Of a DNA stretch of 64,000 nucleotides, positions 12,711-63,859 are shown piece by piece (positions within the stretch are counted from its first letter, which is position 1; each line of letters begins with the position of its first letter). The DNA comes from Eledone cirrhosa (lineage: Eukaryota), in the NCBI GenBank assembly GCA_964016885.1, contig OZ024740.1, positions 338,520,001-338,584,000 of the forward strand, written 5' to 3'. Made by a program: the position numbers and the translations under genes. Under the pieces are notes generated by a model, which saw nothing but the letters and a program-made list of their open reading frames with translations, made no database searches and was not told where the DNA came from.

Positions 12711-13864
12711 AGCCTGAGGCTGATTTAAAATTATCCCTGCACTATTCATATTAACACCTTCCTCTCTGATTTAGTTAAAATGATAAATTGTAAAACAACT
12801 CATACATTTATTGTATAAAACACATGAAGCATACCAGTTTGAGAACTAATCTCAAAATATGAAAAAATATTAAAATATAGCGAAAATGTTGGTTATTTAA
12901 CCCCCTCTAATATTTTATCATGATTTTTTTTTTGTAAACCATTGGATTTGTTATGCTTTGAACTATAAGGATTCAGAATTTACAAAACGAAAATTATTTA
13001 GAATAAGATTTGCAACAGTAGTAATTCTATTTCATATATAAAAACATTTTGTTTACATTTGAATTACATAGATATATTTCCTTCACATTTAAACTTGTAT
13101 AAATATATATTTTGCTCACATTTGAAAGTATTGATTTGTTCCACTTTTTTGAAAATTGAAAAGGTTTTTTTTGAGGGGGTTTCAATTTATTTAAGATAAA
13201 AATGTAATTATAATCATAAGTGAAATATATCTATGCTTTTAAGGATAGAACTAGAAATGTTTTCTTTACACAGATGTTTTAGTCAGCGATCAAAATTATT
13301 TGATTAAACCTGTATTTAATGCACAACAATACATGAGAAAATTCACAGACAATAAACTTTCAGAAACAACAACAGCAAAAACAATAATAATGGTTATCAA
13401 ATTTAGACACAAGGTCAGCAATACTGGAGACAATACAAAGATGAAAAACAATGCAGTAATCATTATAATAAATGGGAAAATTAGGGAATGACTTGAGAAG
13501 ATAATATAGAAATCATATGGGATAATATGAGATTACTCTCAAGCTATACACAGATAATTTGATATCGATTTACTTTTATTTGCTGTTAATCTGAATGCAA
13601 TTGCAAATTGCAGGCAGGTAAGGTGAATCAGTGGGGGAGGGGGAGAGCAATCTGAAATCACTACACCATTTTCGTTGGTGTTAAGCAAGTGAGACCACAA
13701 AATTCCTCCCAGGATGGAATGCTAAGCTGTCACAATGTTAACTCCCAGTTAATGTTGTTAGTGCCCATTTCACCTGATTGAACTAGAGTAAGAGGAAATG
13801 AAGTGCATTGTTCAAGAACATGACATGCTGCTCAGTCTGAGATTCAAACCAATAACCTTATAAT

Positions 13865-14055
13865 AATTGTTTCTACTTTTGGTACAATGCCAGCAATTAT
13901 CCCAGTGCATTGCTTGTACTTTATTTTATCAACCCTGTAAGGATGAAAGGCAAAGTTAACCTCAGTGGGATTTGAGCTCAGACATTAAAGGGCTGTAACT
14001 CTTTGCTGCAAAGCATGGCATCTAACCCTCTACCAATACTGCCAATCCACCACCG
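13865..14055 (-). mobile_element. tRNA-derived SINE family A
   Basis: 'aaggatgaaaggcaaagttaacctc..gggatttga.ctcaga' shared by more than 10 copies in the window. Confidence 0.8.
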
Positions 14056-14697
14056 TATAATAATGAACTCAAATCCCTAATCAGTAGGCCATATTCCTTA
14101 ACCAACTTAAACAAAATTAACTAGAACGGTTTCTTGGAGTTCTTAACAAAATAGCACTTAGTCTTTCGTTTGCTACAAACATTTGATTGAGGCTTCAGAA
14201 ACAAACTGCGTAGAATGATATTCCAAGAGACTGTTGCAAAGAATACATCACTTTACTCTAAAGATTATTTTAGAGTAGAGAGGATCAATACATCATTATT
14301 TAAAAATAGCTATTTCAATCAAACAGATTTCTTGTTGAGTACCATCTCTGCTGAAGAGGATCTCATAACAACCAACTCAAAATCAAACAGCATTCACGGC
14401 CGACCATATCATTATTGATATAATGTGAAACATTAAGATGGTGTGGAAGGTTTGTGACAAATCATGAATACTCTATAGATCATCAACCACCACTGCAGAA
14501 TATTAACAAGCATTATAGAATATCATCTACATTACAGACAGAATGTTAACATATACATATATGCAGGCATAGCTCTATATATGTTTAAGAAGACTGCTTC
14601 ATAATTATATGGTTGCAGATTCAATCCCACAGTATGGGACCTTGGCCAAATGTTTTCTACTATAGCCTTTGGTTGACCAAAACATTGTGTGCATGTG

Positions 14698-17739: not shown

Positions 17740-18030
17740 GACAAATTGGCAGGCTTGTTTGACCATAGGACAAAATACATTGTGGTATTTGCTCCAGTTC
17801 TCATCTTTCTAAGTTCAAATCCCATCAAAGTCAACTTTTTCCTCTTATCCTATTGAGGTTGATAAAATAAAGTATTCATCCTGTATGAAGGTTTGGTGGC
17901 ATTATTAAAGCATTGGTTCAAATCCCGCTGAGGTTAACTTTGCCTTTCATCCTTACGTGGTCGATAAAATAAAGTACCAGTAATGTACTGATTAATTGCT
18001 GGCCTTGTGCTAAAAGTAGAAACCATTATT
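17740..18030 (+). mobile_element. Nested SINE family A copies
   Basis: gttcaaatcccgctgaggttaactttgcc...gcctgtgctaaaagtagaaac-like tail. Confidence 0.7.
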
Positions 18031-18619
18031 AAAGCATTGGATATGATGTTTTCTGATATTTGTTCTGGTTCTTTGAGTTGTAAGTTCAAATCTGACAATA
18101 GCCTACATGGGTGGCATATTCTATGGACCCCTATTTGTGGAGTTCACTAAATTCTCTCAATCTGTCTCTCAGATTGGGGACACTTGGCAGAGTTCACTCA
18201 GTTGCAAGCATTTAAGCCATGTCTTCATGGCCTGGAAAGGGCCATAGGAACTGTCCTTCCTTCCCTGACTAAACTGTAAAAGAAAAAATATCCTCCACAG
18301 CATGACATTCATAGAGCAGCCAAGTGATTTTAATAAAATGCAAGTCATCTTTATAAACTGTTGCAACCCTTGATTTGTTAATATGTTGAGCTGTTTGATT
18401 TGAATAGAATCCTAATGAGACAATATGATTAAAGTCTATTTGCTTTTTATTTCATCCTTATAAACTGCTGAAACCTCTGGTCATTTAACCAGTTGATCTA
18501 TATGATCTGTATGATCAGTTGATCTGTTTTTCTAGCTGAGATTCTACACTTGGGTGCAATTTGAACTTGTAAACTTAGAAAGACATCTTGACATGTAACA
18601 GTGTTGTTAGTTATTCTCT

Positions 18620-22180: not shown

Positions 22181-22232
22181 ACCATTTATTCAATGTGGCC
22201 TTCCTTTTTTTCAGACATTATATGATTTGAGG

Positions 22233-22412
22233 GGTTGGCAGTATCGGTAGAGCGTCAGACGCCATGCTTTCCAGCATAGTTACGTCCCTTTACTGATTGA
22301 GTTCAGATCCCGCCGAGGTTAACTTTGCCTATCATCCTTTCGGGATCGATAAAATAAAGTACCAGTGATGTACTGGGTAATTGCTGGTCTTGTGCCAAAA
22401 GTAGAAACAATT
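22233..22412 (+). mobile_element. SINE family A
   Basis: ttggcagtatcggtagagcg A box; gagttcagatccc B box. Confidence 0.85.
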
Positions 22413-22718
22413 ATATGATTTGAGGGAACTTCACTCCTATTTCTATCAAGTAATGTGACTACATAGAGTCCTTCATTGGTGTGTGTCAATTATAGTAAAG
22501 GGGGAACATGTAGTGAGAAAATTGTGTTCCAATAAATTTTATAAAATCTGTGTGAGGGTGGTTAATCTGGTTCCTTCTGTTTCACTTTGGTGAGAGAAAA
22601 AGAGCTTATATCTAGTTTATTTTACCTACAAAGACTAAAGCACTGCTGTTATATCAGTTTTTAAATGTTACCTAAATTATAAAATATAAATTCTTATATT
22701 ATAAATTTCACCCCCTCC

Positions 22719-23901: not shown

Positions 23902-23962
<61 letters not shown>

Positions 23963-24400
23963 CAGGCACACATATATATATATATATGTACGTATCAGTT
24001 TAGCGGACATTTATTATAATGTCCGCTTTGTCCGTTTGTAAACAAACGGACAGCCTGATTTATGCCGTACGGTGTTAAGGCAACCACGTCACCTTTTTGT
24101 TCAACACTGACACAGGAACGATGTACTAGTTTCAAGCTTGTTAGCTATCGTCAGCACCGTATACCCTTCTGCCAGATGGTTGAACGTTCGAAAGTATATA
24201 CTTTCTTTATGAAAATTAACGGCTGAGCAGCCTAATTTGCATATCGAGTGAGTTCAGTCGGCCAGGCGCACCGAAAACGATAAAATGGAATAGAATGAAA
24301 TGAAATTTCATTTCTCACTCTTAGTACGGCACTTACTTAAATGTAAGTATGTATGTATACGTACATACATATATGCATACAGACGTACAGTAGCATGTAT
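23788..24400 (-). mobile_element. Retrozyme-like element, about 493-nt unit with about 120-bp terminal redundancy
   Basis: taaaatggaatag... at 23788 and 24281; HHR inside; (TA)n flanks. Confidence 0.8.
24119..24159 (-). ncRNA. Minimal type I HHR
   Basis: rc: cggtg CTGACGA t-agct(aaca)agct-t GAAA ctag TA catcg. Confidence 0.85.

Positions 24401-25188: not shown

Positions 25189-25190
<2 letters not shown>
24421..25190 (-). mobile_element. HHR-bearing non-coding element with internal about 220-bp duplication and 22-bp inverted end
   Basis: ataagatcaaaagatggttaaa is inverted at about 25079; direct repeats at about 24620-24830 and 24830-25050. Confidence 0.7.
24454..24524 (-). ncRNA. Type I HHR
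   Basis: rc: tgttttat CTGATGA aaacacaaatatt...atgtttgttttt GAAA tgcgca TA ataaaata. Confidence 0.8.
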
Positions 25191-25232
<42 letters not shown>

Positions 25233-25383
25233 CAAGCACACATATATATATGTACGTATCAGTTTAGCTAACATTTATTATAATGTCCGCTTTGTCAGTT
25301 TTGTAAACAAACGGACAGCCTGATTTATGCCGTACGGTGTTAAGGCAACCACGTCACCTTTTTGTTCAACACTGACACAGGAA

Positions 25384-25424
25384 CGATGTACTAGTTTCAA
25401 GCTTGTTAGCTATCGTCAGCACCG
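25384..25424 (-). ncRNA. Minimal HHR in a truncated second copy (25229-25424) of the 23788 family
   Basis: Same sequence as 24119-24159; the copy ends exactly at stem I, followed by (TA)n. Confidence 0.85.
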
Positions 25425-25440
25425 ATATATATATATATAT

Positions 25441-29145: not shown

Positions 29146-31321
29146 TTAGAAAGTGAGGTTTTTTTTTACAAAATGAAAAATAACAGAGGTGTCCTACACA
29201 AGTGAAAGTATAAGGAAAAAAGATGGAGGGTCTGTGGTTTTTCTCACATCTGGTTAGTTTTTGAATGTTACTTGTTTTATATGGAAAAAAGTGGCAGGTT
29301 TTTAGAGAAGTAATTTGATTGGTTGGTGAATAAGTATAATAAATTTCGCGCCAGTTCGCGTTACATAGTTCTTAAAACAATGGGGGGGGGGGGTCTCAGC
29401 TTGTTTTTCCCTATATGAGTGAAGTTTGGTTAGTTGATGCAAACACGTGAATAAGCACATCAGCTTTCGCGCCAGTTTGTGTTTGAATTTCTTTTTACTT
29501 AAAAAAAAGTGGCTCACGAAGGCTTTTTTTTAAAATATGTAATTTGATTGGTTATAAATGAAATTATGAGTGTCACGTGAACAAGTACATTAAATTTTGC
29601 GCCCGTATTTTGGAATTTTTTTATAGCCATTTAGAGAATTTTATGCCAAACAGAAGATAATGGTCAAGAAAAAAGGGATGGAGAGAGTTGTTCTAAGTAT
29701 GACTAATGCGCTGAAATGTAATTTGATTGGTTATAAATGAAATTATGACTGTCACGTGAACAGGTTCCTTAAATTACGCGCCCGTATTTGGGAATTTATT
29801 TTGTAGCCTTTTAGAGAATTTTGTGCCAAACAAAAGATAATGGTCAAGAGAAATGGGATGGGGAGAATTGTTCTGGTTCAGTGAATATGGCTGGTTCACT
29901 GGGGTGTCAGAATTCAGACTTTCTATTGAAATAAAGAATATAGAGATATGTATGTTTATTTGTGTGCTTGCTTGCGCGCGTGTGTGCGTGTGTGTGTGTA
30001 GGAAGAGGATTCTATTAGTAGAAATGGGGGAGGGAGTTGTGTGTGTGTATGGGTGTTGTGTGTGTATGTGTGTGTGGGAGTATGGTTAGCAAGTTAGGAT
30101 GGAGAGAATATATTTTTTTTTGTGCGTGGGGGGGGGGGAGTATGGTTAGCATGCTAAGATGGAGAGAATATTTATATTTTGTGTGTGTGGGTGTGTAGGA
30201 AAATGATTCCGTTAATAGAATTGCGGGAGGGAGTTATGTGTGTGTGGGGTGTGTGGTTAGCATGTTAAGGTGTTAGAGTATTAACGTATGTTAAGGTTTA
30301 TTTAGTTCTGGTTTTTATTTTCTAAAGTAGGTGTTATGTGTGTGTGTGTGTATGTATGTGTCTGTTTGGATGGTTAGCATGTTATGGTGTTGACATAATG
30401 TATATTAAATTATATTTAATGCTGGTCTATATTTTTGAATAAGCATATTTTCCTTATTTATTCGTATTTGTTCTGTTGTATTGTCAGCGCAAAGATACAA
30501 TGGGAAGACTTGGAATTTGGGTGTCTTATTACTTGTGCATATGTCTAGATGTGCACTTAGTGGTATCTGTCTCGTGGTTGGATCTCGTAATTGTTGGCGA
30601 TGAACTGTCATTCTCTTTCTGAGTGTGAGTTTAGTTTGTCCTATATAATCTTCATTGCATTCTTTAGATTTAATGGCATGAAGTAGATTTTTTGATGAGC
30701 AAGTGAAGGGATTTTTTACAGCAAAATTTTGTCCTTATTGAAATCTATACGTGTTGCCTTCAATGAGGTGAGTGCAGGTTCCACAATTAGGGCGATCACA
30801 TTTTTTGACAGTTGGTTGTGGGTTTGTGGTAGGTAATTTGGCATTGGTGAGTAATGTTTTCAGTGATTTTGGTTGTATTTTGCTTTTGATTATTTTGTGT
30901 GTTTCAAGGGCTTTTTTCATTCCTGGGTCTTGTTTCAATAGTGGGATGTTCTTGTGAATAGTGCTGTAAGCTTCCACATTTCTTGGGTTGTGCGTTGAGA
31001 TATATGATATTGGACGTACCTTGAATTTGTTTCTGTTTTCGTAATTCATCAATGCCTATTGCTTTAGCCCTTTCTATTCCATTATTTATTAGTAATGGTG
31101 GGTACTGTCTTTCGAGTAGAATTTCTTTAATTCTTGAAGTCTATTATTTCGCGTTTATTTCCATATAAAACAAGACCAACCAGATGTGAGAAAAACCACA
31201 GACCCTCCATCTCAACACTACTTTTGAAAAGCAGAAGAACTGCGAAACCGGTAAAGAAACCAAATAAATATATATATTTAAAAAAAAAGACTGCAGTTGC
31301 ATTTTTGATTTCATCTTTTTT

Positions 31322-31325
<4 letters not shown>
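29146..31325 (-). mobile_element. 5'-truncated PLE (GIY-YIG region, 3' region and inverted pLTR segment)
   Basis: 30405-31135(-): CDRPNCGTC...FTCSSKNLLHAI...YIGQT...RMTVHRQQ...H...E...I....PALN with stops; 31160-31325 is an inverted homolog of 29205-29290. Confidence 0.85.
31221..31256 (+). ncRNA. Minimal HHR with U3-A8 core
   Basis: ctt TTGAAAA gcag(aagaa)ctgc GAAA ccgg TA aag. Confidence 0.65.
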
Positions 31326-31369
<44 letters not shown>

Positions 31370-31372
<3 letters not shown>

Positions 31373-32015
31373 TTTCGTTTCTGAATTTGTTTAGCAAGAT
31401 TCTTTATCTGAAATCGTGTGTTGAAACCGATATTGTTATACTTTGGGAGGGTCATGTTGCCAATAAGAAACACACGCACCAGTTGCTTTCACTTCAATTT
31501 ATCATATATTTATAAATTTATAAATTTACAAATCTACAAATTTATAAATTTCTGGTTGGTTGGTTGGTTCCACAACCAGATAGTTGTTTATATATAGTCA
31601 TAGTCCTTTCGTCACACACTCTGTGACCTCTTCAGTGACTGGGGATTCCTTTCTTTGTTTCTGTGCCTTTCCTTTCTTCTATCCTACGCCATTTTGTTTC
31701 TGTGTGTGTGTTGTGTGCTCAGTTTGCGCATGCGCCACATCCGTGTGTCTGTGTGTGTTTGTGTGTGTGTGTTCATTTATCTATTTGTTTATTTATTTAT
31801 TTATTTATTGTTGGTTGGTTGTTTGTTCTATGTGTGTGTGTGTTTTCATTTTGTCCTGTGTGTGTTTTCATTTTGTCCTTAATTGTAAGTTGTGATGTTG
31901 CTGTTCCACTCATAATTTGTCAATTTATAAATTTATAAATATATAATAAATTGAAGTGAAAGCAACTGGTGCGTGTGTTTCTTATTGGCAACATGACCCT
32001 CCCAAAGTATAACTA
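31370..32015 (-). mobile_element. PLE pLTR-like element with about 90-bp inverted terminal segment
   Basis: 31436-31525 is inverted at 31922-32013; tail motif shared with the 50227 PLE. Confidence 0.8.
31596..31640 (-). ncRNA. Minimal HHR
   Basis: rc: agtca CTGAAGA g gtcaca(gagtg)tgtgac GAAA ggac TA tgact. Confidence 0.8.
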
Positions 32016-32050
32016 TATATATATTAATAAAATAGATGTTCTTTTGATCA

Positions 32051-32113
32051 ATTACATTTTGTTATACATATTTCGGATGTACAACAGTACGTCCTCATCA
32101 GACAAAATATAAT
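32051..32113 (-). ncRNA. Minimal HHR (family shared with the 34015-34310 foldback)
   Basis: rc: attatattttgt CTGATGA ggacgtac(tgtt)gtacatcc GAAA tatgta TA acaaaatgtaat. Confidence 0.85.
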
Positions 32114-32223
32114 GATACATGATATACCCTGAGATGTTAAATAGTTAAGATTTAATCTAGGTAGTGATTAACCTAAGAGAAAATTTAACATTTATACCCT
32201 AATAATGAGAAAATGCGAAAACG

Positions 32224-32347
<124 letters not shown>

Positions 32348-33049
32348 GGGTATCCCCCAAAAATCTATACACATTTTGATTACCTGTACAGGCAATATTT
32401 CTAAGAATGGTGTATATTGGGGGACACCCAATATATATATATATATATTTAATACAATAACAGAGATAGCTTAAAGCTAAACTCTGACTGGTAACCATCT
32501 CACTAAACAAACATTAGATTATATGTTAGTATAAACCCAATTTAAGTGTTTGGGGTACTAACTATATGTATTATGTGGAAAGCCAGTTGTATTATTTTAT
32601 GAGATATAATTAAAGTTACATTATATCTCTCTTTCCAAACAATTGTTTCAGTATAAGTTTTCTACAAATTAGGGGAATGTTTCCAGTTTATGTAGAAGCC
32701 TAACATATATTCATGTAAGAATATATTTAGGTGGGCGTTTATAAATCATCAGTGGAAGCCCATTAAACTTTGATATAAGAAAAAATTCTTACCGCAGTTA
32801 AAAATCGTGTCTGCTAAGCTGCTCCCTCACGCATCGAATGACCGCCAAATTTGAAATTCCAGCAGTTTTTGACCGAGGAAGTATTATAGCGTCACGAAGC
32901 GGGAAGGGGAGACAACCAATACACGAGAAAAGAAAAAATAATATTCACGCGGGTTGTATATATATATATATATTTATAAAACCATATTTATTTTATTATA
33001 CATATCTCAAGGGCAACCAAGGCAAATTATGGTGCGCTTATGTAACCTC

Positions 33050-33132
<83 letters not shown>

Positions 33133-33142
33133 GAGTAACCTC

Positions 33143-33186
<44 letters not shown>

Positions 33187-33218
33187 GACACACACACTTT
33201 GTTCCCGTTCAATTTTTC

Positions 33219-33257
<39 letters not shown>

Positions 33258-33263
<6 letters not shown>

Positions 33264-33966
33264 ATAAATTAACGGAGCCATAGACTCTCGCCATTCCCTG
33301 TTATTAATGTGCCCAAAGGAGCATATATGTCTACTTTGCCTTCCGTGGGCTATAGATTCCATACACTGGTGGTTTTTCCCAGTTTGACTGATGTCGCACC
33401 ATCTCTCTCTCTGGTGTGTTATCTTCTCTATATATTGTATTATAAATGGCTCGGTATTCCTTCTCCTCTGGGCACATTAATGACAGGGAATGGCGAGAGT
33501 CTATGACTCCGTTAATTTATCGTGATATTTCGCTCCTTATAATAGTATATTCTCTCCCTCTGTTTGGTTGAGCACATTTCTCTGAGTGGTTTGGGCTGCC
33601 CTTTCTAGCAGCTCATCCACTGGTTGTTGCCCTAGAAACGCTGTGAATTTTCTCTACCACGTGTGGCTGGACGGTCCCTTTAGATTCTCTTAGTGTTGTC
33701 TGAAATGTATAGCCTTACACACGCTGATGAACCATGGGTTAATCATTTCTCTCAACAACTTATTTGGTGAAACAGATCCTGTTGGATTTGTACGTGTGTG
33801 TTAGATAGTTATCAACGTACATATTTGCACTTTGATTTATACTTTTAATTATTGTGTGTCTACTTTGCCTTCCATGGGCTACAGATTCCATACACTGGTG
33901 GTTTTTCCCTGTTTGACTGATGGCGCACCATCTCTCTCTCTGGTGTGTTATCATCTCTACATATTG

Positions 33967-33973
<7 letters not shown>
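33258..33973 (+). mobile_element. Retrozyme-like element, about 530-nt unit with 115-bp terminal redundancy and about 62-bp inverted 5' segment
   Basis: 33328-33443 repeats at 33857-33973; 33258-33321 is the inverse of 33463-33527; (TA)n on both sides. Confidence 0.85.
33716..33800 (+). ncRNA. Full type I HHR with stable stem III
   Basis: tacacacg CTGATGA acca..tggt GAAA cagatcc(tgtt)ggatttg TA cgtgtgtg. Confidence 0.9.
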
Positions 33974-34014
<41 letters not shown>

Positions 34015-34019
<5 letters not shown>

Positions 34020-34310
34020 TATTAATAAAATAGATCTTCTTTTGATCAATTACATTTTATTATACATATTTCGGATGTACAACAGTACGTCCTCATCAGA
34101 CAAAATATAATGATACATGACATACCCTGAGATGTTAAATGGTTAAGATTTAATCAATGACTACCTTGATTAAATCTTAACCATTTAACATCTCAGGGTA
34201 TGTCATGTATCATTATATTTTGTCTGATGAGGACGTACTGTTGTACATCCGAAATATGTATAATAAAATGTAATTGATCAAAAGAACATCTATTTTATTA
34301 ATACTTATAT
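34015..34310. mobile_element. Near-perfect foldback (about 143-bp arms) with HHRs at 34049-34111(-) and 34212-34274(+)
   Basis: Arms meet at about 34158-34167; HHR fold as at 32051. Confidence 0.88.
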
Positions 34311-34417
34311 TAATAACTCCTGAAAATTATTTTTTCGTTGAGTGCTTCCAATATGCTGTAAAAAATCATTCTTTGACATAATCATTGAATATTGTTTAAC
34401 AATTTAATACTTATATA

Positions 34418-34616
34418 TAAAAACCACAGACCCTCCATCTCAACTCACCTTTTGAAAAGCAGAAGAACTGCGAAACCGGTAAAGGAACCAAATAAATATA
34501 TATATTTTTTTAAAAAATAAGACTTCAGTTGCATTTTCGATTTCATCTCTTTTTCTTTATACTTTCACTCGTGTAGGACATCTCGGTTATTTTTCATTTT
34601 GTAAAAAAAACCTCAC

Positions 34617-34622
<6 letters not shown>
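34418..34622 (+). mobile_element. pLTR fragment of the 29146 PLE family, with U3-A8 HHR at 34448-34485
   Basis: cctt TTGAAAA gcag(aagaa)ctgc GAAA ccgg TA aagg. Confidence 0.78.
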
Positions 34623-34696
<74 letters not shown>

Positions 34697-34960
34697 TCGT
34701 TTCAGTATCACATTCTAATAAATGGAACGTGTCTTTGTGTTTCTGCACTTTTTTTATCCTTGTAAACCAGAGGTTCTCAAAGTGGGCGCTACTCTCCGGT
34801 TAGCGTTGAAAAGGTCTAGTGGCGCTGGGGCTTAAGGGGTGTTGTCGGGGGTGGTAGAGATGATACGATAGTATATTAAATATCAAAGGATACATATATA
34901 TAAATATAGTAAATTAAAATATATATATTTAATTATACATAGTATATATTATTTATTGTG

Positions 34961-35325
34961 GATTGGCAGTATGGGTAGAAGGTCGGACGCCATGCATAGA
35001 GTTACGGCCCTTTACGGTCTGAGTTCAAATCCCGCCGAGGTTAACTTTGGCTTTTATCCTTACGGGGTAGATTAAATATAGTACCAGTAATGTACTAGGG
35101 TAATTGCTGGCCTTGTGCCAAAAGTAGAAACAATTATATATAAATTAATTGTTTCTACTTTAGGCACAAGGCCAGCAAATACCCAGTACATTACTGGTAC
35201 TTTATTTTATCGACCCCGTAAGGATGAAAGGCAAAGTTAACCTCGGCGGGATTTGAACTCAGACTGTAAAGGGATGTAACTATGCTAAAAAGCATGGCGT
35301 CCAACCCTCTACCGATACTGCCAAT
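34961..35325. mobile_element. Tail-to-tail pair of family A SINEs, possibly inside a degenerate hAT-like MITE (about 34768-35432)
   Basis: 34961-35135(+) and 35147-35325(-); MITE ends cagaggttctcaaa / tttgagaa. Confidence 0.75.
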
Positions 35326-35699
35326 TTTATTTATTATATATTGTTTACAATTTATATGTAGGCAGGTCACTCTGGAAATAGGGGTGGAGGGCCCTGAGTG
35401 AGGCGGAGGCCCAAAACGTTTGAGAATATGTAGTGTAATCACTTATTAGTTATCATCATACTAACATCCCTACGTCGTGCAGTCAATTTTTATAAAGCCA
35501 TATAGTAATTGTTACTTCCAGAGGTGTTAGATTCAAATTAACTACTTACAAATACAAACTTAATATTTAAATGAAAAGCTAATTGAATAATATCAGTAGA
35601 CGAATCTCCAGCCTCTCAGCAAATAAATAAATCTTCGATATAGTGAACATCATTTATAATCGTTTTAAGGTCTTATATATATACATGCTTAAAATACTT

Positions 35700-36212
35700 A
35701 TTTCTACTTTAAGCACAAGGAAATTTGAAATGGAGGGGAAAGTCGATTAAATCGATTCGAATGCATTACTGGTGCTTCATGTTATCGACCCCATAAGGAT
35801 GAAAGGCAAAGCTAACCGCGGCAGGATTCGAACTCAGAACGTAAAGGGCTATAACTCTATGCCGCTAATCCTGTTACCCGATGCTCTGCCGAATCTGCTA
35901 ATCCACCGCCCTAAAGCACATATGTATTACAATATTAGAATTAATGGATTCAAAGAAAAGAGCGCAGATATCCCCCACCAAACTATATCTAATATTGGTT
36001 TCTGATTCAGGCACAAGGCCAACAATTTTATGGAAGGGGAAAGTCGATTAAATCGACTCAGTGCATTACTGGTACTTTATTTTAATGACATCGTAAGGAT
36101 GAAAACAAAGCTAACCTCGGCGGGATTTGAAATCAGAACGAAAGGGGATGTGAACTTTTTGCCATAAAGCATGCTGTCCGACGCTCCAACCGATACTGCC
36201 AATCCGCCGCCT
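35700..36212 (-). mobile_element. Two family A SINE copies
   Basis: 35700-35910 and 35995-36212 both carry the diagnostic motif. Confidence 0.75.
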
Positions 36213-36354
36213 TTCTTGCACCTAATATATAGGCGCTGAGCTGGCCAGCCGCAGGTCTGAACCCCGCGAGTTGGAGTGGCTTTTCCAGCGTGTCTCCCCT
36301 GCCGTCCTCCGGGGAAACGCCTTCTCCATCCTGTCCGCCGGGGCTGTGCGGGTG

Positions 36355-36800
36355 TGTGCACTATCATATACATGTTTAACAGAATTTTGTTTGATGCTTC
36401 TAGTTATTTTCATAGGACTTGATATGAAGAAGAGACATCATAACATCATCTGGTTCACACCTTTTTCTTTCAATGTTAAGCCAAATATTTCTAAAAGCCT
36501 CCTAGTTTTAATAGAGCATGTGGGGGCCTCATCGCGTAACATTCCATATTTAAGTATGTGCACTATCATATACATGTTTAACAGAATTTTGTTTGGTGCT
36601 TCTAGTCATTGTCGTAGGACTTGATATGAAGAAGAGACATCACAACATCATATGGTTCACACCTTTTTCTTTCAATGTTAAGACAAATATTGCTAAAAGC
36701 CTCCTAGTTTTAATAGAGCAGCAATTCTCAATCAACCACCATTACAGGAAATTATTTAATAGAAGCAGTTTTAAAATGAGTTAAAGCTGTTTTCTGAAAA
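36355..36800 (+). pseudogene. Decayed PLE linker fragment, tandemly duplicated (about 165 bp)
   Basis: KRHHNIIWFTPFSFNVKTNIAKSLLVLIEQQFSINHHYRKLFNRSSFKMS matches the 'NIIWFNPP...NVKTNIG' PLE pattern. Confidence 0.7.
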
Positions 36801-37416: not shown

Positions 37417-37581
37417 GGGGGGGGGGGTACAATATTTAAACGATATACAAAAAAAATCTTTCTCATATATCAAGTTCAGAAACTACTAGTATTATGTACA
37501 TATACATAGAACAACAAGCAATAAATGTAATATATATATATATGTTATATATATATATATATATATATATATGTTTATATA

Positions 37582-37863
37582 GTTATACTTGGGGACGGTG
37601 ATATTGTTGTAATTATATTGCCAGAAATAATAACAGAACACACTCACTGTTTGGTTGCTTTTCGCGTCTGTATCTTTTATATCTCCATAGTTAATTTATT
37701 TGGCAATCAGTGTTTATCATTGATTGACCAACGGTTAAAAATACAAATATAAATATATATATATAGTCTATCAAAGTTCTTTCGTTGCACATCTGCAACA
37801 TCATCAGTGGTACTATTATCATGTTGCCTCTTATTGTATTGTAATGTTTACGCCATTTTTATT

Positions 37864-37894
<31 letters not shown>

Positions 37895-38522
37895 TTTTTG
37901 TCTCCGTCTCTGCGCATGAGTTTGCGTGTGTGTATAATGTTTGGTGTGTGTGTTCGCCTTTGAATGTATGTGTTTTGGTTTTTGTATTATATCTTTGTTT
38001 ACTAGTGTGTGTTTATATGTGTTTGCTGTTATTGTACTTGTGTATTTATTTATTTATTTATTTATTTATATTTCCCTTAAGTCAGTATTGTTTGTTTTGG
38101 GTATGGTTGTTGTTGTTATTCGATTCGTTTTTTCTTTTTAACTTTGGTTTTCTAAGCTCTATTTCACTTGCTTCTCTGATTTGCCTACTTGTTGGGTCAT
38201 TTCTATGTTTAGATATTATTTTAATTTCTATGCTGTCTATATTACCGTCGTGTTGTTGTCTGGCATGTTCGTATAGTAGTGAACCGTTTTTTTTTCATCC
38301 TTTTAATTCACCCAGTGGTGGTCTATTCTTTCTCATATGCTTCGAACTGCCAACAACTTCTAAGCGTCTAACAATGACATACCACCCTTGCATGGGCACT
38401 GCAAAGACCATAAAACAACCGAAGACCCGACGACAGGACATCCAACAAGACCTGTATGCGGAGCCAATTTTGCTAGCAACTACAGGATCACCTACTTTCT
38501 CTCGATGGTTATACGCCCCATA
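37582..38522 (-). mobile_element. Truncated copy of the 50227 PLE family with an inverted RT piece
   Basis: 38090-38330 is similar to 50790-51015 (EN C-terminus); 38388-38520(+) GHCKDHK...PTRPVCGA...RITYFLSMVIRP is an N-terminal PLE RT motif; HHR core at about 37763-37816(-). Confidence 0.85.
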
Positions 38523-41418: not shown

Positions 41419-41486
<68 letters not shown>

Positions 41487-41774
41487 CAAATAACGAAACG
41501 AAATTAAATTTCGTTTCGTTTGTAACTCACTTTTGTATGACTGACGCTTAAACAATTAAGTTAAAAATGTACATCCACATATGTATACTGAAATACTAGT
41601 ATGCATATGAATACACACACGTATACATATGTAGATGTACCAAATTTTTCACTGGTCACTTTACTGTGAGTGTCCAGCTATTATGTATGTAAACACACAG
41701 ACAAACCGATTTTTAGAGTCATACTGGTTCTTGAGGAAACACCTTTCCTCTATTCTCCAGAAAGCCAGACAAGG

Positions 41775-41819
41775 AATATTGAACTAGTTTCGTTGTTGTT
41801 ACAACTCATCAGCAGTATT
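41775..41819 (-). ncRNA. Minimal HHR (monomer 1)
   Basis: rc: aatactg CTGATGA gttgt(aaca)acaac GAAA ctag TT caatatt. Confidence 0.85.
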
Positions 41820-42240
41820 TACCTATCTTCCGGCCTTTCTGGAGAATCGTAAAAGCACATATCGTTATATGCTTTTTCTATGAAAATTAGTAGTGGGCAG
41901 ACTAATTTGCATAGAGCGTGAGTACGTACCGGTTCAACGGAGACGATAAAAACAAATAACGAAACGAAATTAAATTTCGTTTCGTTTGTAACTCACTTTT
42001 GTATGACTGACGCTTAAACAATTAAGTTAAAAATGTACATCCACATATGTATACTGAAATACTAGTATGCATATGAATACACACGCGTATACATATGTAG
42101 ATGTACCAAGTTTTTCACTGGTCACTTTACTGTGAGTGTCCAGCTATTATGTATGTAAACACACAGACAAACCGGTTTTTAGAGTCATACTGGTTTTTGA
42201 GGAAACACCTTTCCTCTATTCTCCAGAAAGCTAGACAAGG

Positions 42241-42285
42241 AATATTGAACTAGTTTCGTTGTTGTTACAACTCATCAGCAATATT
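42241..42285 (-). ncRNA. Minimal HHR (monomer 2), perfect 7-bp stem I
   Basis: rc: aatattg CTGATGA gttgt(aaca)acaac GAAA ctag TT caatatt. Confidence 0.9.
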
Positions 42286-42700
42286 TACCTATCTTCCGGC
42301 CTTTCTGGAGAATCGTAAAAGCACATATCGTTATATGCTTTTGCTATGAAAATTAGTAGTGGGCAGACTAATTTGCATAGAGCGTGAGTACGTACCGGTT
42401 CAACGGAGACGATAAAAACAAATAACGAAACGAAATTAAATTTCGTTTCGTTTGTAACTCACTTTTGTATGACTGACGCTTAAACAATTAAGTTAAACAA
42501 AAGTGAGTTACAGTCATACAAAAGTGAGTTACAAACGGAACGAAATTTAATTTCGTTTCGTTATTTGTTTTTATCGTCTCCGTTGAACCGGTACGTACTC
42601 ACGCTCTATGCAAATTAGTCAGCCCACTACTAATTTTCATAGAAAAAGCATATAACGATATGTGCTTTTACGATTCTCCAGAAAGGCCGGAAGATAGGTA

Positions 42701-42745
42701 AATATTGCTGATGAGTTGTAACAACAACGAAACTAGTTCAATATT
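42701..42745 (+). ncRNA. Minimal HHR (inverted copy)
   Basis: aatattg CTGATGA gttgtaacaacaac GAAA ctag TT caatatt. Confidence 0.9.
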
Positions 42746-42836
42746 CCTTGTCTGGCTTTCTGGAGAATAGAGGAAAGGTGTTTCCTCAAAAACCAGTATG
42801 ACTCTAAAAACCGGTTTGTCTGTGTGTTTTAACTTA

Positions 42837-42866
<30 letters not shown>

Positions 42867-44929: not shown

Positions 44930-45560
44930 TTAAGGAAGGTCATCGTTGACAATTTCAGTACCTCTGAGCTTAGCCAATAACTCAATTATAGATGACTTCT
45001 TCGATGTTATATTGAATATCACAATTAACTTATATAAAGCGTTTAATAAACCCTATAAAAAAACTCTCTTATATTAACATAGGATCAATACATTACCCTC
45101 TAGTTAGTGCCGGATTTACCATTGTGCTTGGGGCCCCATCTTCCTGTCAAGAAATGTATTTATACCGGGCCTACCTCCTTCAGGATCCCATGACTTAACT
45201 AGCACAAGGCCTCATTAGTCCTAAATCCGGCACTGACTCTAATAATTGTTTCTACTATTGGCACAAGGCCAGCAATTACCCAGTACATTACTGGTACTTT
45301 ATTTTATCGACCCCGTAAGGATGAAAGGCAAAGTTAACCTCGGCGGTATTTGAACTCAGAAATGGCAAGGGTCGTAACTCTATGCGTAAAAGCATGGCGT
45401 CCGACCCTCTACCGATACTGCCAATTCAGGCACTGACTCGTATAATGTTTAAGAACTTCATCAATAAGATTAAACAACAGGACTTTCAATCTAGCCTCTA
45501 GTAAGGAAATATTTGATAAGGTAAAGTCCCTCTAACAATATATTACTGGCAAACGAATTC
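44930..45560 (+). pseudogene. Decayed PLE RT-thumb fragment interrupted by a MITE (45105-45236) and a SINE A (45243-45425, -)
   Basis: DFFDVILNIT..YKAFNKP...; MITE TIR agtgccggattta/taaatccggcact; SINE TSD ggcactgactc. Confidence 0.6.
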
Positions 45561-50229: not shown

Positions 50230-52180
50230 ATACTTGGGGAGGGTCATATTTGCGTAATATTGCCAGAATTAATAACAGAACACACTCACTGTTTGGTTGG
50301 TTTTCGCTTCTCGCTGTCTTTTATTATATCTGCGATCTAACTTATTCGGTCCTCAATGTTGCCATTGACTGACCGGCGGTCAAAAATAATACAGATACAA
50401 TATAGACACAAACACATATATATATATATAGTTTACATAATTTACATAAATCTTTCGTTGCACATCTGCAACATCGTCAGTGGTGTTATATTCATTGTTC
50501 CTCCTGTTGTGTTGTATGTCTACGCCATTTTTTATTCAGTCTGTCTATATATTTATTTATTTATTTGCTTGTTTGTTAATCTTATTTTATTTTGTCTTCT
50601 TTGCGCATGCGTTTGCGTGTGTGTATAGTGTTATGTGTGATGTGTGACTAGTGTGTATAGTGTTGTGTCTGCTGGGTGACTAGTGTGTGTTTATGTGCTT
50701 GTTGTTATTGTGCTTGTGTATGTATTTATTTATCTTATTTTATTTAATTTTATTTACTTATTTATACTTCTCTTAGGTCAGTGTTGTTTGTTTGGGTGTT
50801 GTTGTTGTTCCACTCATTCTTTCTGTTTAGCTTTGGTCTTCTAATTTCTATTTCACTGGCCTCTCTGATTTGCCTATCTGCTGGGTCATTCCTATGTTTA
50901 GATATTATTCTAATTTCTATGTTGTCTATGTTACCGTCATGTTGTTGTCTAGCATGTTCGTATAGTACTGACCCGTTTTTTCGTCCTTTTAGTTCCCCCC
51001 AGTGTTGGTCTATCCTTTCACCTATGCTACGAGCTGTCTCACCTATGTATGTTTTTGTCATGTTTCTGCAAGTACCCTCTGTACATCTTATGCTATAGAC
51101 TACGTTTCTAGTTTTACAGTTTATCCGGGGGTTCACCTTACATATGATACACTTCCTATTGGTACAGTGGGTTTTCTTAAAAGGGTAGGTTTTGCTGATC
51201 AGGGATTTTATGGTGGTTCCTGGCTTTTCTACCACCTTTATTTTTAAGTGGGTCTTTCTCAGGGCCTTTCTACACTGGTTAGCTAATTTCCCTCCAGGGG
51301 TGGCGTCCACAAACATGACACTCTGATATCTCTGGTTGTCGTACCATGATGTGGCCTTCCCTATCTTATGTCTAGCCCTATCTAAGCTATTCCATGATTT
51401 GCTCCTGTATAGTGGGCAGATTCCTTTCATGTCCAGTTCTATGAGGGTCTTATACTTTTCCATGGCTCCTTCGTATACTCTGACTCTGTCTCTTTGGTTG
51501 TAGCCAGAGAACTGCATGCGGTTGATGAAGTGTTGGATGTGTCCTTCCATTTCTGTTGGGTCGCACATGCTGGACACATTCTTCATCACTCGTACCAAAT
51601 CTGCGATCAGAATATTAAACTTAGCACTACTGGACATTACTGAGTTTTTGAGTATCAGGTATTTGGAGGCCATGGGTTTAGCATAGTGTGAGTGGAGAAT
51701 TTGGGCTCTCTCGTCTATAGTGTTAATCCAGAGTTCTGTGACTAATACAGGTAGTCTATTGTTAGGGTGTTTGGAAGGGAAGTCTATAGTTACAGTTATA
51801 CTCTGGTGTATGGAATTAGCTATCTGCTGGATGCTTTCCATCGTGCTACGTTCTAAATCAAACTTGTTAGTGCTCTCTAGTGGGGGTGTTCTTATAACTA
51901 TATTGATATCATCTACATAACGAGAGTACATGATGAGGTCTATGGAGCTTTCATTAAGGAGATCTTTAAGTCTCCTTTCCCACCATACCATGAAAAGGTT
52001 AGCAACATCACCAGCTATGCTGACGCCGATGGCTGCTCCCTCATTTTGGGTGTAGATTTTCTCATTGAACTTAAATATGTGGCCCTTTAGGGTAGTTTTG
52101 ATACTAGCCCCTATTGCATGTGCGACCATTTTTCTTACCTGATCAGTGTTTTGGGGGGTCCGTATGGCTTTGGTCCACCC
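50227..52180 (-). mobile_element. 5'-truncated Penelope-like retroelement inserted in (TA)n
   Basis: RT-EN ORF, then about 535-bp 3' region with HHR core at about 50443-50485 (CTGACGA t gttgca/tgcaac GAAA); (TA)n on both sides. Confidence 0.92.
50762..52129 (-). CDS. PLE RT (motifs 4-7, thumb), Cys-rich linker and C-terminal GIY-YIG endonuclease; N-terminally truncated
   Basis: QNEGAAIG, RYVDD, LPVL, C-x4-CxxC-x7-C, NVVYSIRC...YIGETARSIGERIDQH...H...H...E...LN; the frame stays open upstream to about 52180. Confidence 0.92.
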   Translation of the reverse strand: MVAHAIGASIKTTLKGHIFKFNEKIYTQNEGAAIGVSIAGDVANLFMVWWERRLKDLLNESSIDLIMYSRYVDDINIVIRTPPLESTNKFDLERSTMESIQQIANSIHQSITVTIDFPSKHPNNRLPVLVTELWINTIDERAQILHSHYAKPMASKYLILKNSVMSSSAKFNILIADLVRVMKNVSSMCDPTEMEGHIQHFINRMQFSGYNQRDRVRVYEGAMEKYKTLIELDMKGICPLYRSKSWNSLDRARHKIGKATSWYDNQRYQSVMFVDATPGGKLANQCRKALRKTHLKIKVVEKPGTTIKSLISKTYPFKKTHCTNRKCIICKVNPRINCKTRNVVYSIRCTEGTCRNMTKTYIGETARSIGERIDQHWGELKGRKNGSVLYEHARQQHDGNIDNIEIRIISKHRNDPADRQIREASEIEIRRPKLNRKNEWNNNNTQTNNTDLREV

Positions 52181-52185
52181 AATAA

Positions 52186-52271
<86 letters not shown>

Positions 52272-56860: not shown

Positions 56861-57759
56861 GATATGTTCAGCTTTTTTAGGAGTTAGGTTATCCTTGGTA
56901 AGATTATTTATAATGTAAAATTGATGAGGTATATTTTAAACTTCCAAATTTCTACAAAAATCGCAGGTGAGAGAATTTATCCTTTTATGCAAATTATTCA
57001 AATTTTTAACTACTTTCTTTTGCAACATCATGCTAAGTTATTACATTCAAATATCTAGCTTCATTAACATTTTTAATTTAATGTTTAACATTTTAGAATT
57101 AAAATTTTATTTCAAATTCAAATATCTTAATATGTTTACATTTTGAAATAATTCTCATAAACATTCACACCCACAGAAGGCAATATTCCCTCGATTAATT
57201 TTTTTTTGTCCATCTTTAAAATAATCTAAATGAAATCGTATTCTGTTTCAATAAAATCTACATTTGAAAATACATTCCAAGAAAATGAACTAATATCATA
57301 GTTAGCGGTAGCACTAATATAAAATGATTCATACGAAATCATATACGATATGTATAATAAACATATGTAATTCTCGCAAAAACTGTTTTAAGCTGTGATC
57401 ATGTAACAGTAGAGATGTGAGAATGACAGACACAAGTGTTTTATCACACAGTCACTGTGATAGCTGTGACATGATCACTGCTTAAAACAGTCATATCAAG
57501 ATATATATTTTTATTATACACAATTACATTGTATATATCTCCGTAAACACCTCTATTATGTGTACTAAAACATGAGAAAACAACTATAAAAAAATTATTT
57601 AAATACGATCAATCATAAATTATCTACAATTTACTAAACAATACCACACGCTTCTACACAAACAAGCCCTCCCACTTTTGCGTTTCTTTTCCTATCTTCT
57701 TGAATGACTTACACAAAGACAAGTATATAATGGTTTCTGATGTATGCATAAAGCCAACG

Positions 57760-57925
57760 ATTTTAGTTGAGGGGGGCATTAAATCAACCCCAGTGCGTTA
57801 CTAGTGCTTTATTTTATCAAACTCGTAAGAATGAAAGGCGAAGCTGACCTCAGCGGGATTTGAGCTCAGGGCGTTAAGGCTTTAAACTCTATGTCGCAAA
57901 ACATCTTGTCCGGCAATCTACTGAT
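57760..57925 (-). mobile_element. SINE family A
   Basis: Diagnostic motif present. Confidence 0.65.
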
Positions 57926-58171
57926 ACAACAAAATAAAACGAAAGCCGAAAAGACGTTTATTTTACTGCTTGAAGATTTGCCAACTAATTGAAATACATG
58001 CACATCTACTGCAAACAACAATTTATTAAAATGCTTTACTGAATTGCATATGTATTTGAATTTATTCCTCCGACTGTTTGCTATAAAATTCCATTGCACT
58101 CATGTCAGCTAAATTTTCCGTTCCTTGTCCTTTTCTCTGGCATACAATTTCACTCTAACCACAGTTTATTT

Positions 58172-62943: not shown

Positions 62944-63277
62944 AAAGTTCTATTTAAATTGTTGGGATACAACAAGCAAATATTTTTATAACTGATATAA
63001 AGCACTCGACAAATATTTGGAGTAGATATATGATATTAATAAATGGAAACTATATTTATAAAACCATATTTATTTCATTATATATATTTCAAGGATACCA
63101 AGTTAAATTATGGTATGCCTTCAAAATACAATATATAACAAGTAAGTATGTTTTGAAACAGTGAGCGAGTTTGAAATTAGAAAATATATAGCTTTCACCG
63201 TATTTTTTTTTAACTAAAGGAATTTTAGCTTGATAACGGGGTTTAGAACCCTCAGATAAATGGAAAAATATGAGTAT

Positions 63278-63348
63278 TGACGTACATGGGAGTCGAACCC
63301 ACATCGGTGGTTATCGCGACCACTGTGCTACCATTACACCAACACATC
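63278..63348 (-). ncRNA. tRNA-like cloverleaf (inverted copy)
   Basis: gatgtgt tg gtg(taatggtag)cac a gtggt(cgcgata)accac cgat gtggg(ttcgact)cccat gtacgtc a. Confidence 0.7.
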
Positions 63349-63523
63349 ACCCGTCTCTTTCCATTCAAATTAGAAACAAGCTAAAATTCCTTTAGTTAAA
63401 AAAAAATACGGTGAAAGCTATATATTTTCTAATTTCAAACTCGCTCACTGTTTCAAAACATACTTACTTGCCATTTAAACTCGCTAAGAATGTAGTTTCT
63501 AATTTGAATGGAAAGAGACGAGT

Positions 63524-63594
63524 GATGTGTTGGTGTAATGGTAGCACAGTGGTCGCGATAACCATAGATGTGGGTTCGACTCCCATGTACGTCA
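63524..63594 (+). ncRNA. tRNA-like cloverleaf with A and B boxes and T5 about 10 nt downstream
   Basis: 7-bp acceptor (3 GU), D, anticodon and T arms; loop CG-CGA-TA lacks U33. Confidence 0.72.
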
Positions 63595-63794
63595 ATACTC
63601 ACCTTTTTCCATTTATCTGAGGGTTCTAAACCCCGTTATCAAGCTAAAATATATAACAGTTTTATAAATAGACATTGACGTACCCTTTTAAAAAGTGACC
63701 GTTGCTTTTGGAGACCATCGGGATGGCCTCCAAAAGCAACGGTCACTTTTTAAAAGGGTACGTCAATGTCTATTTATAAAATTGTTATATATTG

Positions 63795-63859
63795 TATTTT
63801 GTCTGATGAAGGCATACCATAATTTAACTTGGTATCCTTGAAATATATATAATGAAATA
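63795..63859 (+). ncRNA. Minimal HHR in a multiply inverted element (about 63025-63900)
   Basis: tattttgt CTGATGA aggcatacca..tggtatcctt GAAA tatata TA atgaaata. Confidence 0.82.

What the first reader, a model, noticed from the sequence alone, without database searches (positions are those of the whole stretch)
33258..33973. About 530-nt terminally redundant element with a full, monomer-competent HHR
Seen: 8-bp stem I, 7-bp stem III hairpin, GUA site and a 30-nt loop II; 115-bp direct terminal redundancy and an inverted 5' piece. Unlike the neighbouring minimal HHRs it should not need dimerisation. Inference: about 1.2 turns of reverse transcription around a circular template, or a pLTR-only insertion.
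Basis: partly seen in the sequence, partly recalled or inferred. Interest (0 to 1): 0.7.

Follow-up and report, generated by a model that had tools for sequence, protein, structure and literature searches.

The report
Penelope-type retrozyme with long-stem hammerhead
This is one aged copy of an abundant, non-coding 529-base jumping repeat in an animal genome, of a known kind (a retrozyme): it carries a hammerhead motif predicted to cut its own RNA, with an unusually long third stem, and its back-to-back arms were likely pasted in by a Penelope-type retrotransposon enzyme.

Summary
There is a type I hammerhead at 33716-33800 (helix I 8 bp, helix III 7 bp, GUA cut after 33792; 0 of 300 shuffles match). 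A 117-nt direct repeat gives a 529-nt period, and a 66-nt inverted arm lies at the left end, all inside (TA)n. The element is non-coding and high-copy: over 1,300 contigs per run in one sample. It is a two-armed, head-to-head insertion whose two outer ends lie about 82 nt apart in the unit. One end is fixed across copies, inner junctions vary, and each end precedes a similar small stem motif. This is the Penelope 'tail' footprint, so the best reading is a non-LTR retrozyme mobilised by a Penelope-like enzyme. The 1.22-unit arm fits a circle or an uncleaved multimer equally well. Monomer activity is unproven: helix III is stable alone, but the '30-nt loop' is better read as an extended helix II, and this copy is predicted to misfold. 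Earlier scan notes describe the same kind of element in this genome many times. New member of a known kind; the long helix III is the only atypical trait.

The parts
33221..33259 (.). (TA)n tract, left half of the target site; no target-site duplication can be read
33256..33321 (-). Short inverted arm, copy of 33463-33528; its 3' end faces outwards and abuts (TA)n with a 4-nt shared overlap
   Evidence: same end followed by (TA)n in 25, 22 and 25 contigs of three runs
33322..33327 (.). Head-to-head junction, 2-6 nt that fit neither arm cleanly
33328..33973 (+). Long arm, 646 nt = 1.22 units of 529 nt
33328..33444 (+). Direct repeat, first copy (117 nt)
   Evidence: 6 mismatches to second copy
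33445..33526 (+). 'Tail' of about 82 nt between the unit positions of the two outer ends (inferred two reverse-transcription start sites)
   Evidence: tail concept from PMC11167929
33449..33500 (+). GCUC...NN-GAGU stem motif 1, starting about 5 nt past the long arm's end position
   Evidence: weak inner helix, not the favoured fold in this copy
33532..33573 (+). GCUC...NN-GAGC stem motif 2, starting 4-6 nt past the inverted arm's end position
   Evidence: predicted pairing probability only 0.09-0.11 in this copy
33716..33800 (+). Type I hammerhead motif: helix I 8 bp, helix II 4 (+6) bp, helix III 7 bp; predicted cut between 33792 and 33793
33857..33973 (+). Direct repeat, second copy; 3' end of the long arm, running into (TA)n
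33970..34017 (.). (TA)n tract, right half of the target site

Best explanation
This is a non-coding, high-copy 529-nt hammerhead repeat inserted as two head-to-head arms in (TA)n, likely a non-LTR retrozyme that was copied in by a borrowed Penelope-type reverse transcriptase/endonuclease. Shown: the unit, the hammerhead motif, the arms, the target, the abundance, one fixed outer end and variable inner junctions. Inferred: tandem copies are transcribed; the enzyme cuts both strands of a (TA)n tract; each 3' end primes copying of the same RNA at one of two internal start sites about 82 nt apart (181 and 263 nt downstream of the hammerhead cut site), each just upstream of a small bulged stem; one copy ran 1.22 units, the other 66 nt; repair joined them head to head. 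The template was more than unit length and intact at the cut site: a ligated circle or an uncleaved multimer, which I rate about even. The long helix III would let the family's hammerhead cut without a partner, but this copy has drifted (about 2.5% per arm) and may be slow or dead.
For: Hammerhead beyond chance (0 of 300 shuffles). 529-nt period, no ORF, no protein or DNA match to other elements in the window. 1378, 1332 and 1461 contigs laid from three runs of one sample, covering 26 of 30 bins, plus 2 contigs from a second organism. In one search the best-supported loose end shown is (TA)n directly after 33528 (25, 22, 25 contigs), and 6 of 15 joints shown (19 in all) are opposite-strand joints at six different places. 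Both repeats share 8 letters that are the minority in those runs, and both arms share 2, so they come from one template variant. The only two sense-strand RCTC..NN-GAGY motifs of the unit start 4-6 nt past the two ends (0 of 20,000 shuffles). The neighbouring family shows the strict ACTC..GAGT form 6 nt past its own end (34310 vs 34316). Partial tandems, an inverted 5'-truncated copy, a tail and (TA)n targets are described for PLEs (PMC8557442 passages); two internal start sites and priming on both strands were shown in vitro (PMC11167929). Retrozymes are proposed as non-autonomous PLE derivatives (10.64898/2026.07.22.740005).
Against: No autonomous partner was identified; the window's RT/GIY-YIG ORF shares no detectable sequence with the element. 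Only one of the two ends is shown fixed across copies, from one sample. The 82-nt tail is longer than the 30-40 bp described. This copy has one hammerhead, not a tandem pair. The stem motif came from an earlier AI note and I widened it after seeing the sequence (the strict form has 0 hits in the element); neither stem is the favoured fold here. The active hammerhead fold is at most 0.14% of the predicted ensemble in 5 of 5 contexts. Rfam gives no hammerhead hit. No RNA evidence was obtained.
Confidence: 0.8

Rival explanations
1. Sub-case of the best reading: the template was a ligated 529-nt circular RNA and the RT ran 1.22 turns.
For: The long arm exceeds one unit and crosses the cut site. 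Retrozyme circles are shown in coral, mussel and axolotl (PMC7229834). The unit folds better than shuffles as a circle (z -2.3, 0 of 60). A stable helix III would favour processing to monomers.
Against: The antisense unit scores the same z (-2.3), so folding is not specific. A linear uncleaved multimer gives the same product, and hammerhead cleavage was not needed for insertion in vitro (PMC11167929). The two repeats differ at 6 of 117 sites in both directions, which is drift and carries no mark of a single circle.
Confidence: 0.4
2. pLTR-only insertion: a 5'-truncated partial tandem of an autonomous Penelope-like element, with no independent non-coding family.
For: Truncated partial tandems with an inverted piece are the usual PLE insertion (PMC8557442). 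The genome could not be searched for an ORF-bearing version.
Against: Sequence downstream of the hammerhead recurs only 529 nt upstream with no ORF between; an autonomous element would have a period of kilobases. None of the 19 loose ends shown (of 387) points to a common coding neighbour.
Confidence: 0.12
3. The inverted arm arose by fold-back (the cDNA 3' end primed on itself) rather than by a second priming from the target, or by later DNA rearrangement.
For: The inverted piece duplicates sequence inside the long arm, and both carry the same minority letters.
Against: Its outer end is a family-wide fixed site abutting (TA)n and precedes the same stem motif as the other end, as expected for a start site and not for a random stop.
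Confidence: 0.12
4. The hammerhead is a chance or non-functional match in an ordinary repeat.
For: No Rfam hit; predicted misfolding; 8 of 9 predicted Xenopus retrozymes did not cleave in vitro (10.64898/2026.07.22.740005).
Against: 0 of 300 shuffles. The one helix variant among 40 rows shown keeps pairing (C-G to U-G at 33779, 83-90% of depth), and none of those rows falls in the core (70 rows were not shown).
Confidence: 0.04

Closest known systems
Metazoan non-LTR retrozymes (Cervera and de la Pena 2020, PMC7229834, parts 2-4 of 6 read, supplement not readable; Li, Clavereau and Pollet 2026, 10.64898/2026.07.22.740005, parts 1-3 of 5 read)
   Same: Non-coding unit with one type I hammerhead, GC 41%, high copy number, no PBS/PPT-type LTR layout seen; 529 nt lies within the 51-972 bp range of the 2026 survey. 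Monomer cleavage is already shown for coral (0.8/min) and mussel (0.1/min) units.
   Different: Helix III is 7 bp, against the usual 1-2 bp palindromic helix; helix II is extended; the unit is longer than the 150-450 bp of the 2020 paper; this copy is a 1.22-unit two-armed insertion, not an array; expression and circles not shown.
Penelope-like element insertions and pLTR hammerheads (Cervera and de la Pena 2014, PMC4209133, parts 1-2 of 4; Craig et al. 2021, PMC8557442, passages; Frangieh et al. 2024, PMC11167929, parts 1-2 of 4)
   Same: Partial tandem, inverted 5'-truncated arm, one-sided tail, (TA)n target, hammerhead upstream of two insertion ends.
   Different: No RT/EN ORF; period 529 nt; tail about 82 nt rather than 30-40; animal PLE hammerheads are mostly minimal.
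Type I hammerheads with long helix III in fungal and protist PLEs, bacteria and phages, mammals and chrysoviruses (PMC4209133; PMC13725137 passages)
   Same: Large helix III, helices I and II of varied size without recognisable loop contacts; the Serpula example cleaves as a monomer.
   Different: Here in an invertebrate non-coding repeat; lacks G10.1-C11.1 in this copy; activity untested.

Membership tests
Type I hammerhead ribozyme | CUGANGA, GAAA and UH core with three helices, helix I open | tested here: met
   0 of 300 shuffles
Type I hammerhead ribozyme | G10.1-C11.1 pair at the base of helix II (highly conserved, not invariant) | tested here: not met
   A-U in this copy; some loose ends read C at 11.1 in other copies
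Type I hammerhead ribozyme | Rfam hammerhead model match | tested here: not met
   the neighbouring cores within 31000-36500 were missed too
Type I hammerhead ribozyme | Active fold favoured; loop 1-loop 2 contacts | tested here: inconclusive
   active fold 2.8-6.2 kcal/mol above the minimum in 5 contexts; tertiary contacts and Mg not modelled; 3 of 8 other cores also scored low for helix II
Type I hammerhead ribozyme | Self-cleavage at the predicted site | not testable with these tools
   needs in vitro transcription
Non-LTR retrozyme | Non-coding unit of a few hundred nt with one type I hammerhead | tested here: met
Non-LTR retrozyme | Many genomic copies | tested here: met
   over 1,300 contigs in each of three runs of one sample
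Non-LTR retrozyme | Tandem units with two or more hammerheads somewhere in the family | tested here: inconclusive
   this copy has 1.22 units and one hammerhead; short contigs cannot show arrays; no genome held
Non-LTR retrozyme | Linear and circular unit-length RNA | not testable with these tools
   no RNA holder listed
Penelope-type insertion (non-autonomous) | Partial tandem plus inverted 5'-truncated arm | tested here: met
   six further opposite-strand joints
Penelope-type insertion (non-autonomous) | Two fixed 3' ends separated by a tail | tested here: inconclusive
   33528 end fixed; 33444 end seen in this copy only; both precede a stem motif
Penelope-type insertion (non-autonomous) | AT-rich / (TA)n target | tested here: met
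Autonomous Penelope-like element (pLTR fragment) | RT and GIY-YIG ORF between the repeats | tested here: not met
   no ORF in the unit; no tblastn match to the window's RT
LTR retrozyme (plant type) | Type III hammerhead in each of two LTRs | tested here: not met
   type I, single, outside the direct repeats

The most novel reading that the evidence does not exclude
The family is an animal retrozyme whose hammerhead has escaped the dimer requirement through a 7-bp helix III, so single transcripts are cut to 529-nt monomers and ligated into circles. A Penelope-type enzyme then copies one circle from both ends of a (TA)n break, starting at two sites marked by twin bulged stems. This would be a genomic record of circle-templated, two-ended Penelope insertion with a defined start signal, a route proposed in print but not shown in the papers I searched.
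Probability: 0.3. Interest if true: 0.55.

Novelty: new member of a known kind. Interest (0 to 1): 0.3.

Why it matters
As it stands it adds a family to a known class and one more case that animal retrozymes ride on Penelope machinery. It is useful as a test substrate: a hammerhead with a self-sufficient helix III separates 'needs a dimer' from 'needs protein or a circle', and the two ends 82 nt apart with their stem motifs give concrete predictions for where a Penelope RT starts. I found no paper on cephalopod retrozymes in two searches (only PMC8557442 held the terms), but the scan's own notes have reported sister families in this genome many times.

Tried and rejected
No whole genome is held, so copy number, arrays and a partner ORF could not be surveyed. 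No second copy in the window by blastn or sensitive local alignment (best score 36, equal to the best shuffled control). Exact 20-mer scans of metagenome and viral contigs: 0 hits. Earlier-notes look-ups by place and sequence found nothing on this family. No RNA holder listed. A closer read-level view of the hammerhead and the 33444 end was not obtained, so family-wide covariation and the second fixed end stay open. Summed contig depth was not used to place ends: it dips at 33452-33479 where the model expects cover, and the tool warns it is no copy number. A second CUGA-like word inside the direct repeat (33387, 33916) is not a hammerhead: no GAAA partner, and the family majority lacks it. A pseudoknot between loop II (33753-60) and 33622-29 was dropped because the majority letters at 33626-27 break it (low depth). 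The decoy hairpin as a family-wide off switch is doubtful: the majority letter at 33739 breaks one of its pairs (and one pair of the helix II extension). No Pol III B box or AATAAA in the element. The ATG in helix II is followed by a stop after two codons. Only 1 of 40 shown variant rows falls in the 51 paired or core hammerhead positions against about 3.8 expected: not significant.

Full report
Setting. The window is AT-rich animal DNA full of microsatellites and repeats, with no long genes. Earlier scan notes call the genome octopus-like; that label is theirs, agrees with my recollection of a short repeat seen here, and was not tested. No whole genome is held.

Observation. The sequence and a descriptor scan give a type I hammerhead on the + strand. 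Helix I has 8 bp (33716-23 with 33793-800), the core CUGAUGA lies at 33724-30, helix II has 4 bp around 30 nt, GAAA lies at 33769-72, helix III has 7 bp with a 4-nt loop, and the GUA site predicts a cut after 33792. In 300 dinucleotide shuffles of the window there was no hit with helices of at least 5, 3 and 5 bp (0.017 hits of any kind per shuffle). The scan gave 9 hits in the real window; the other 8 have a helix III of 1-2 bp. Rfam reported no hammerhead at the gathering score or at E<=10, and missed the neighbouring cores as well. The direct repeat is 33328-33444 = 33857-33973 (117 nt, 6 mismatches, period 529). The inverted piece 33256-33321 copies 33463-33528 (66 nt, 3 mismatches). Both flanks are (TA)n, 39 and 48 nt long.

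Anatomy re-read. The element is two arms joined head to head, each with its 3' end facing a (TA)n tract. The long arm is 646 nt (1.22 units) and ends at the unit position of 33444. The short arm ends at the unit position of 33526-28. The two ends are about 82 nt apart, 181 and 263 nt downstream of the cut site. There is no ORF: within the element the longest stop-free frame that does not run into (TA)n is 77 codons, and six-frame translations find nothing elsewhere in the window.

Family evidence. One search listed 7 runs, 4 holding part of the stretch, none on record as RNA. I laid those 4. Three runs of one sample gave 1378, 1332 and 1461 contigs over 26 of 30 bins, with summed depths mostly of thousands to tens of thousands against about 5-13 for the single contigs listed. 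That suggests copies in the order of thousands, a rough figure, since the tool warns that depth is no copy number. A second organism gave 2 contigs of about 90% likeness. The best-supported loose end among 19 shown (387 in all) is (TA)n directly after 33528, in 25, 22 and 25 contigs: this end is fixed in the family. Six of 15 joints shown (19 in all) join opposite strands, at six different places, so other copies are also inverted and their inner junctions vary. Of 110 variant rows 40 were shown. At 8 positions both direct repeats carry the same minority letter, at 4 only one does; both arms share 2 minority letters. The arms therefore come from one template variant and have since drifted by 9 differences in 183 compared sites, about 2.5% per copy. 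Whether the 33444 end is fixed across copies was not seen: it is masked by the second repeat.

End signal. Two earlier AI notes (e1-8671399, e1-8804881) report a bulged stem, ACTC-hairpin-NN-GAGT, about six letters past both ends of elements tied to Hydra-clade PLEs. I tested this. The strict motif is absent from the element's sense strand. With the pattern widened to RCTC..NN-GAGY after I had seen the sequence, the unit has exactly two sense hits, at 33449 and 33532, 4-6 nt past the two ends. Of 20,000 shuffles none had both (0.5% per end). The loose motif is common otherwise (45 hits in the window, both strands). The neighbouring minimal-hammerhead family shows the strict motif at 34316, 6 nt past its end at 34310, an independent case. 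Against: the inner helices are only 1-2 bp and ViennaRNA does not favour these stems in this copy (0.09-0.11 for the second). The support is positional. I did not test the Hydra link; the window's RT has a CX4CxxC linker and CCHH-like residues by eye, which by PMC8557442 points to Neptune or Nematis rather than Hydra.

Is the hammerhead monomer-competent? For: helix III folds alone at -9.0 kcal/mol, against 0.0 for two neighbours tested. The majority variant at 33779 keeps a U-G pair (83-90% of depth), and one loose end shows a further G-U to A-U change, so the long helix looks like a family trait. Against: the base of helix II is A-U, not the conserved G10.1-C11.1 (PMC4209133). The '30-nt loop' is better read as a 6-bp extension with a 16-nt loop (-22.6 vs -19.9 kcal/mol), and a decoy hairpin that buries CUGAUGA is slightly more stable (-23.2). 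The active fold is at most 0.14% of the ensemble in 5 of 5 contexts. Helix II probability was 0.00 here, at least 0.5 in 5 of 8 other cores and at most 0.03 in 3 of 8, so the measure is crude, and tertiary contacts are not modelled. Verdict: the architecture does not need a dimer; activity of this aged copy is doubtful and untested.

Mechanism. Purified Poseidon protein from Anolis cuts and extends both strands of AT-rich DNA and starts reverse transcription at two internal sites whose spacing is the genomic tail; hammerhead cleavage was not needed and unprocessed RNA was the main template (PMC11167929, parts 1-2 of 4). PLE insertions are partial tandems with an inverted 5'-truncated copy, a 30-40 bp tail and often (TA)n targets (PMC8557442, passages). 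The present insertion matches this point for point, apart from the longer tail. I infer two primings from one (TA)n break on a template longer than one unit and intact at the cut site. A circle and an uncleaved multimer both fit; one copy cannot separate them.

Comparison with what is known. Non-LTR retrozymes are non-coding tandem units with type I hammerheads, expressed as circles in coral, mussel and axolotl, with PLEs proposed as the mobiliser (PMC7229834, parts 2-4 of 6; supplement not readable, and it may show invertebrate hammerheads with longer helix III). A 2026 preprint ties them to pLTRs and reports cleavage in only 1 of 9 tested elements (10.64898/2026.07.22.740005, parts 1-3 of 5; supplements not seen). 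Type I hammerheads of eukaryotic retroelements usually have a short helix III; long ones are reported from bacteria, phages, fungi, mammals and chrysoviruses (PMC13725137 and PMC6155905, passages; PMC4209133, parts 1-2 of 4). It works like a Penelope-mobilised retrozyme. Membership is met for unit, motif, abundance and insertion footprint, and open for arrays, cleavage and circles. Searches for cephalopod or octopus retrozymes returned only PMC8557442, and a search on Penelope initiation stems only PMC11167929.

Verdict. Real, and largely explained: a new family of a known class, of a kind the scan has already noted repeatedly in this genome (310, 422, 445, 470-480 and 520-570-nt families). 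One of those notes (e1-8664355) may be the same or a sister family; I could not compare sequences. The long helix III is the one atypical feature. Interest 0.3.

Noticed in passing
window 41480-42841: Young two-armed 466-nt hammerhead repeat in (TA)n: left arm about 2.2 units, arms 98-99% identical, minimal hammerheads with palindromic CUAG helix III at 41812(-), 42278(-), 42708(+).
   Followed up: partly
window 34008-34343 and 32008-32169: Second hammerhead family as a 298-nt palindrome with 2-bp helix III; the strict ACTC..TT-GAGT stem starts at 34316, 6 nt past the end of the opposite arm. A related core lies at 63803, with an ACTC/GAGT hairpin at 63004-63023.
   Followed up: partly
window 50765-52267 (-): Truncated Penelope-type ORF: RT (RVT_1, E 0.0009, below cut-off) followed by a zinc-finger-like linker and GIY-YIG-like end, with a hammerhead-like core at 50480(-); a 74% relative lies at 37531-38349.
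   Followed up: partly
window 63278-63348 (-) and 63524-63594 (+): Two tRNA-like sequences in inverted orientation inside a larger palindrome (63222-63650), above the Rfam tRNA threshold; possibly tRNA-derived SINE heads.
   Followed up: no
window 31430-32018: Element with 104-nt inverted ends and a hammerhead at 31635(-) with CUGAAGA core and 1-bp helix III.
   Followed up: no
window 23919-24163 and 25189-25429; 24516(-): Further hammerhead-like cores (CUGACGA with CUAG helix III; one with a long helix II) in other repeat families.
   Followed up: no
window 13847-14057, 17912-18034, 22232-22416, 34959-36212, 45237-45428, 57727-57927: Many copies of one short interspersed repeat, 74-93% alike, including a palindromic pair at 34962-35325.
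   Followed up: no
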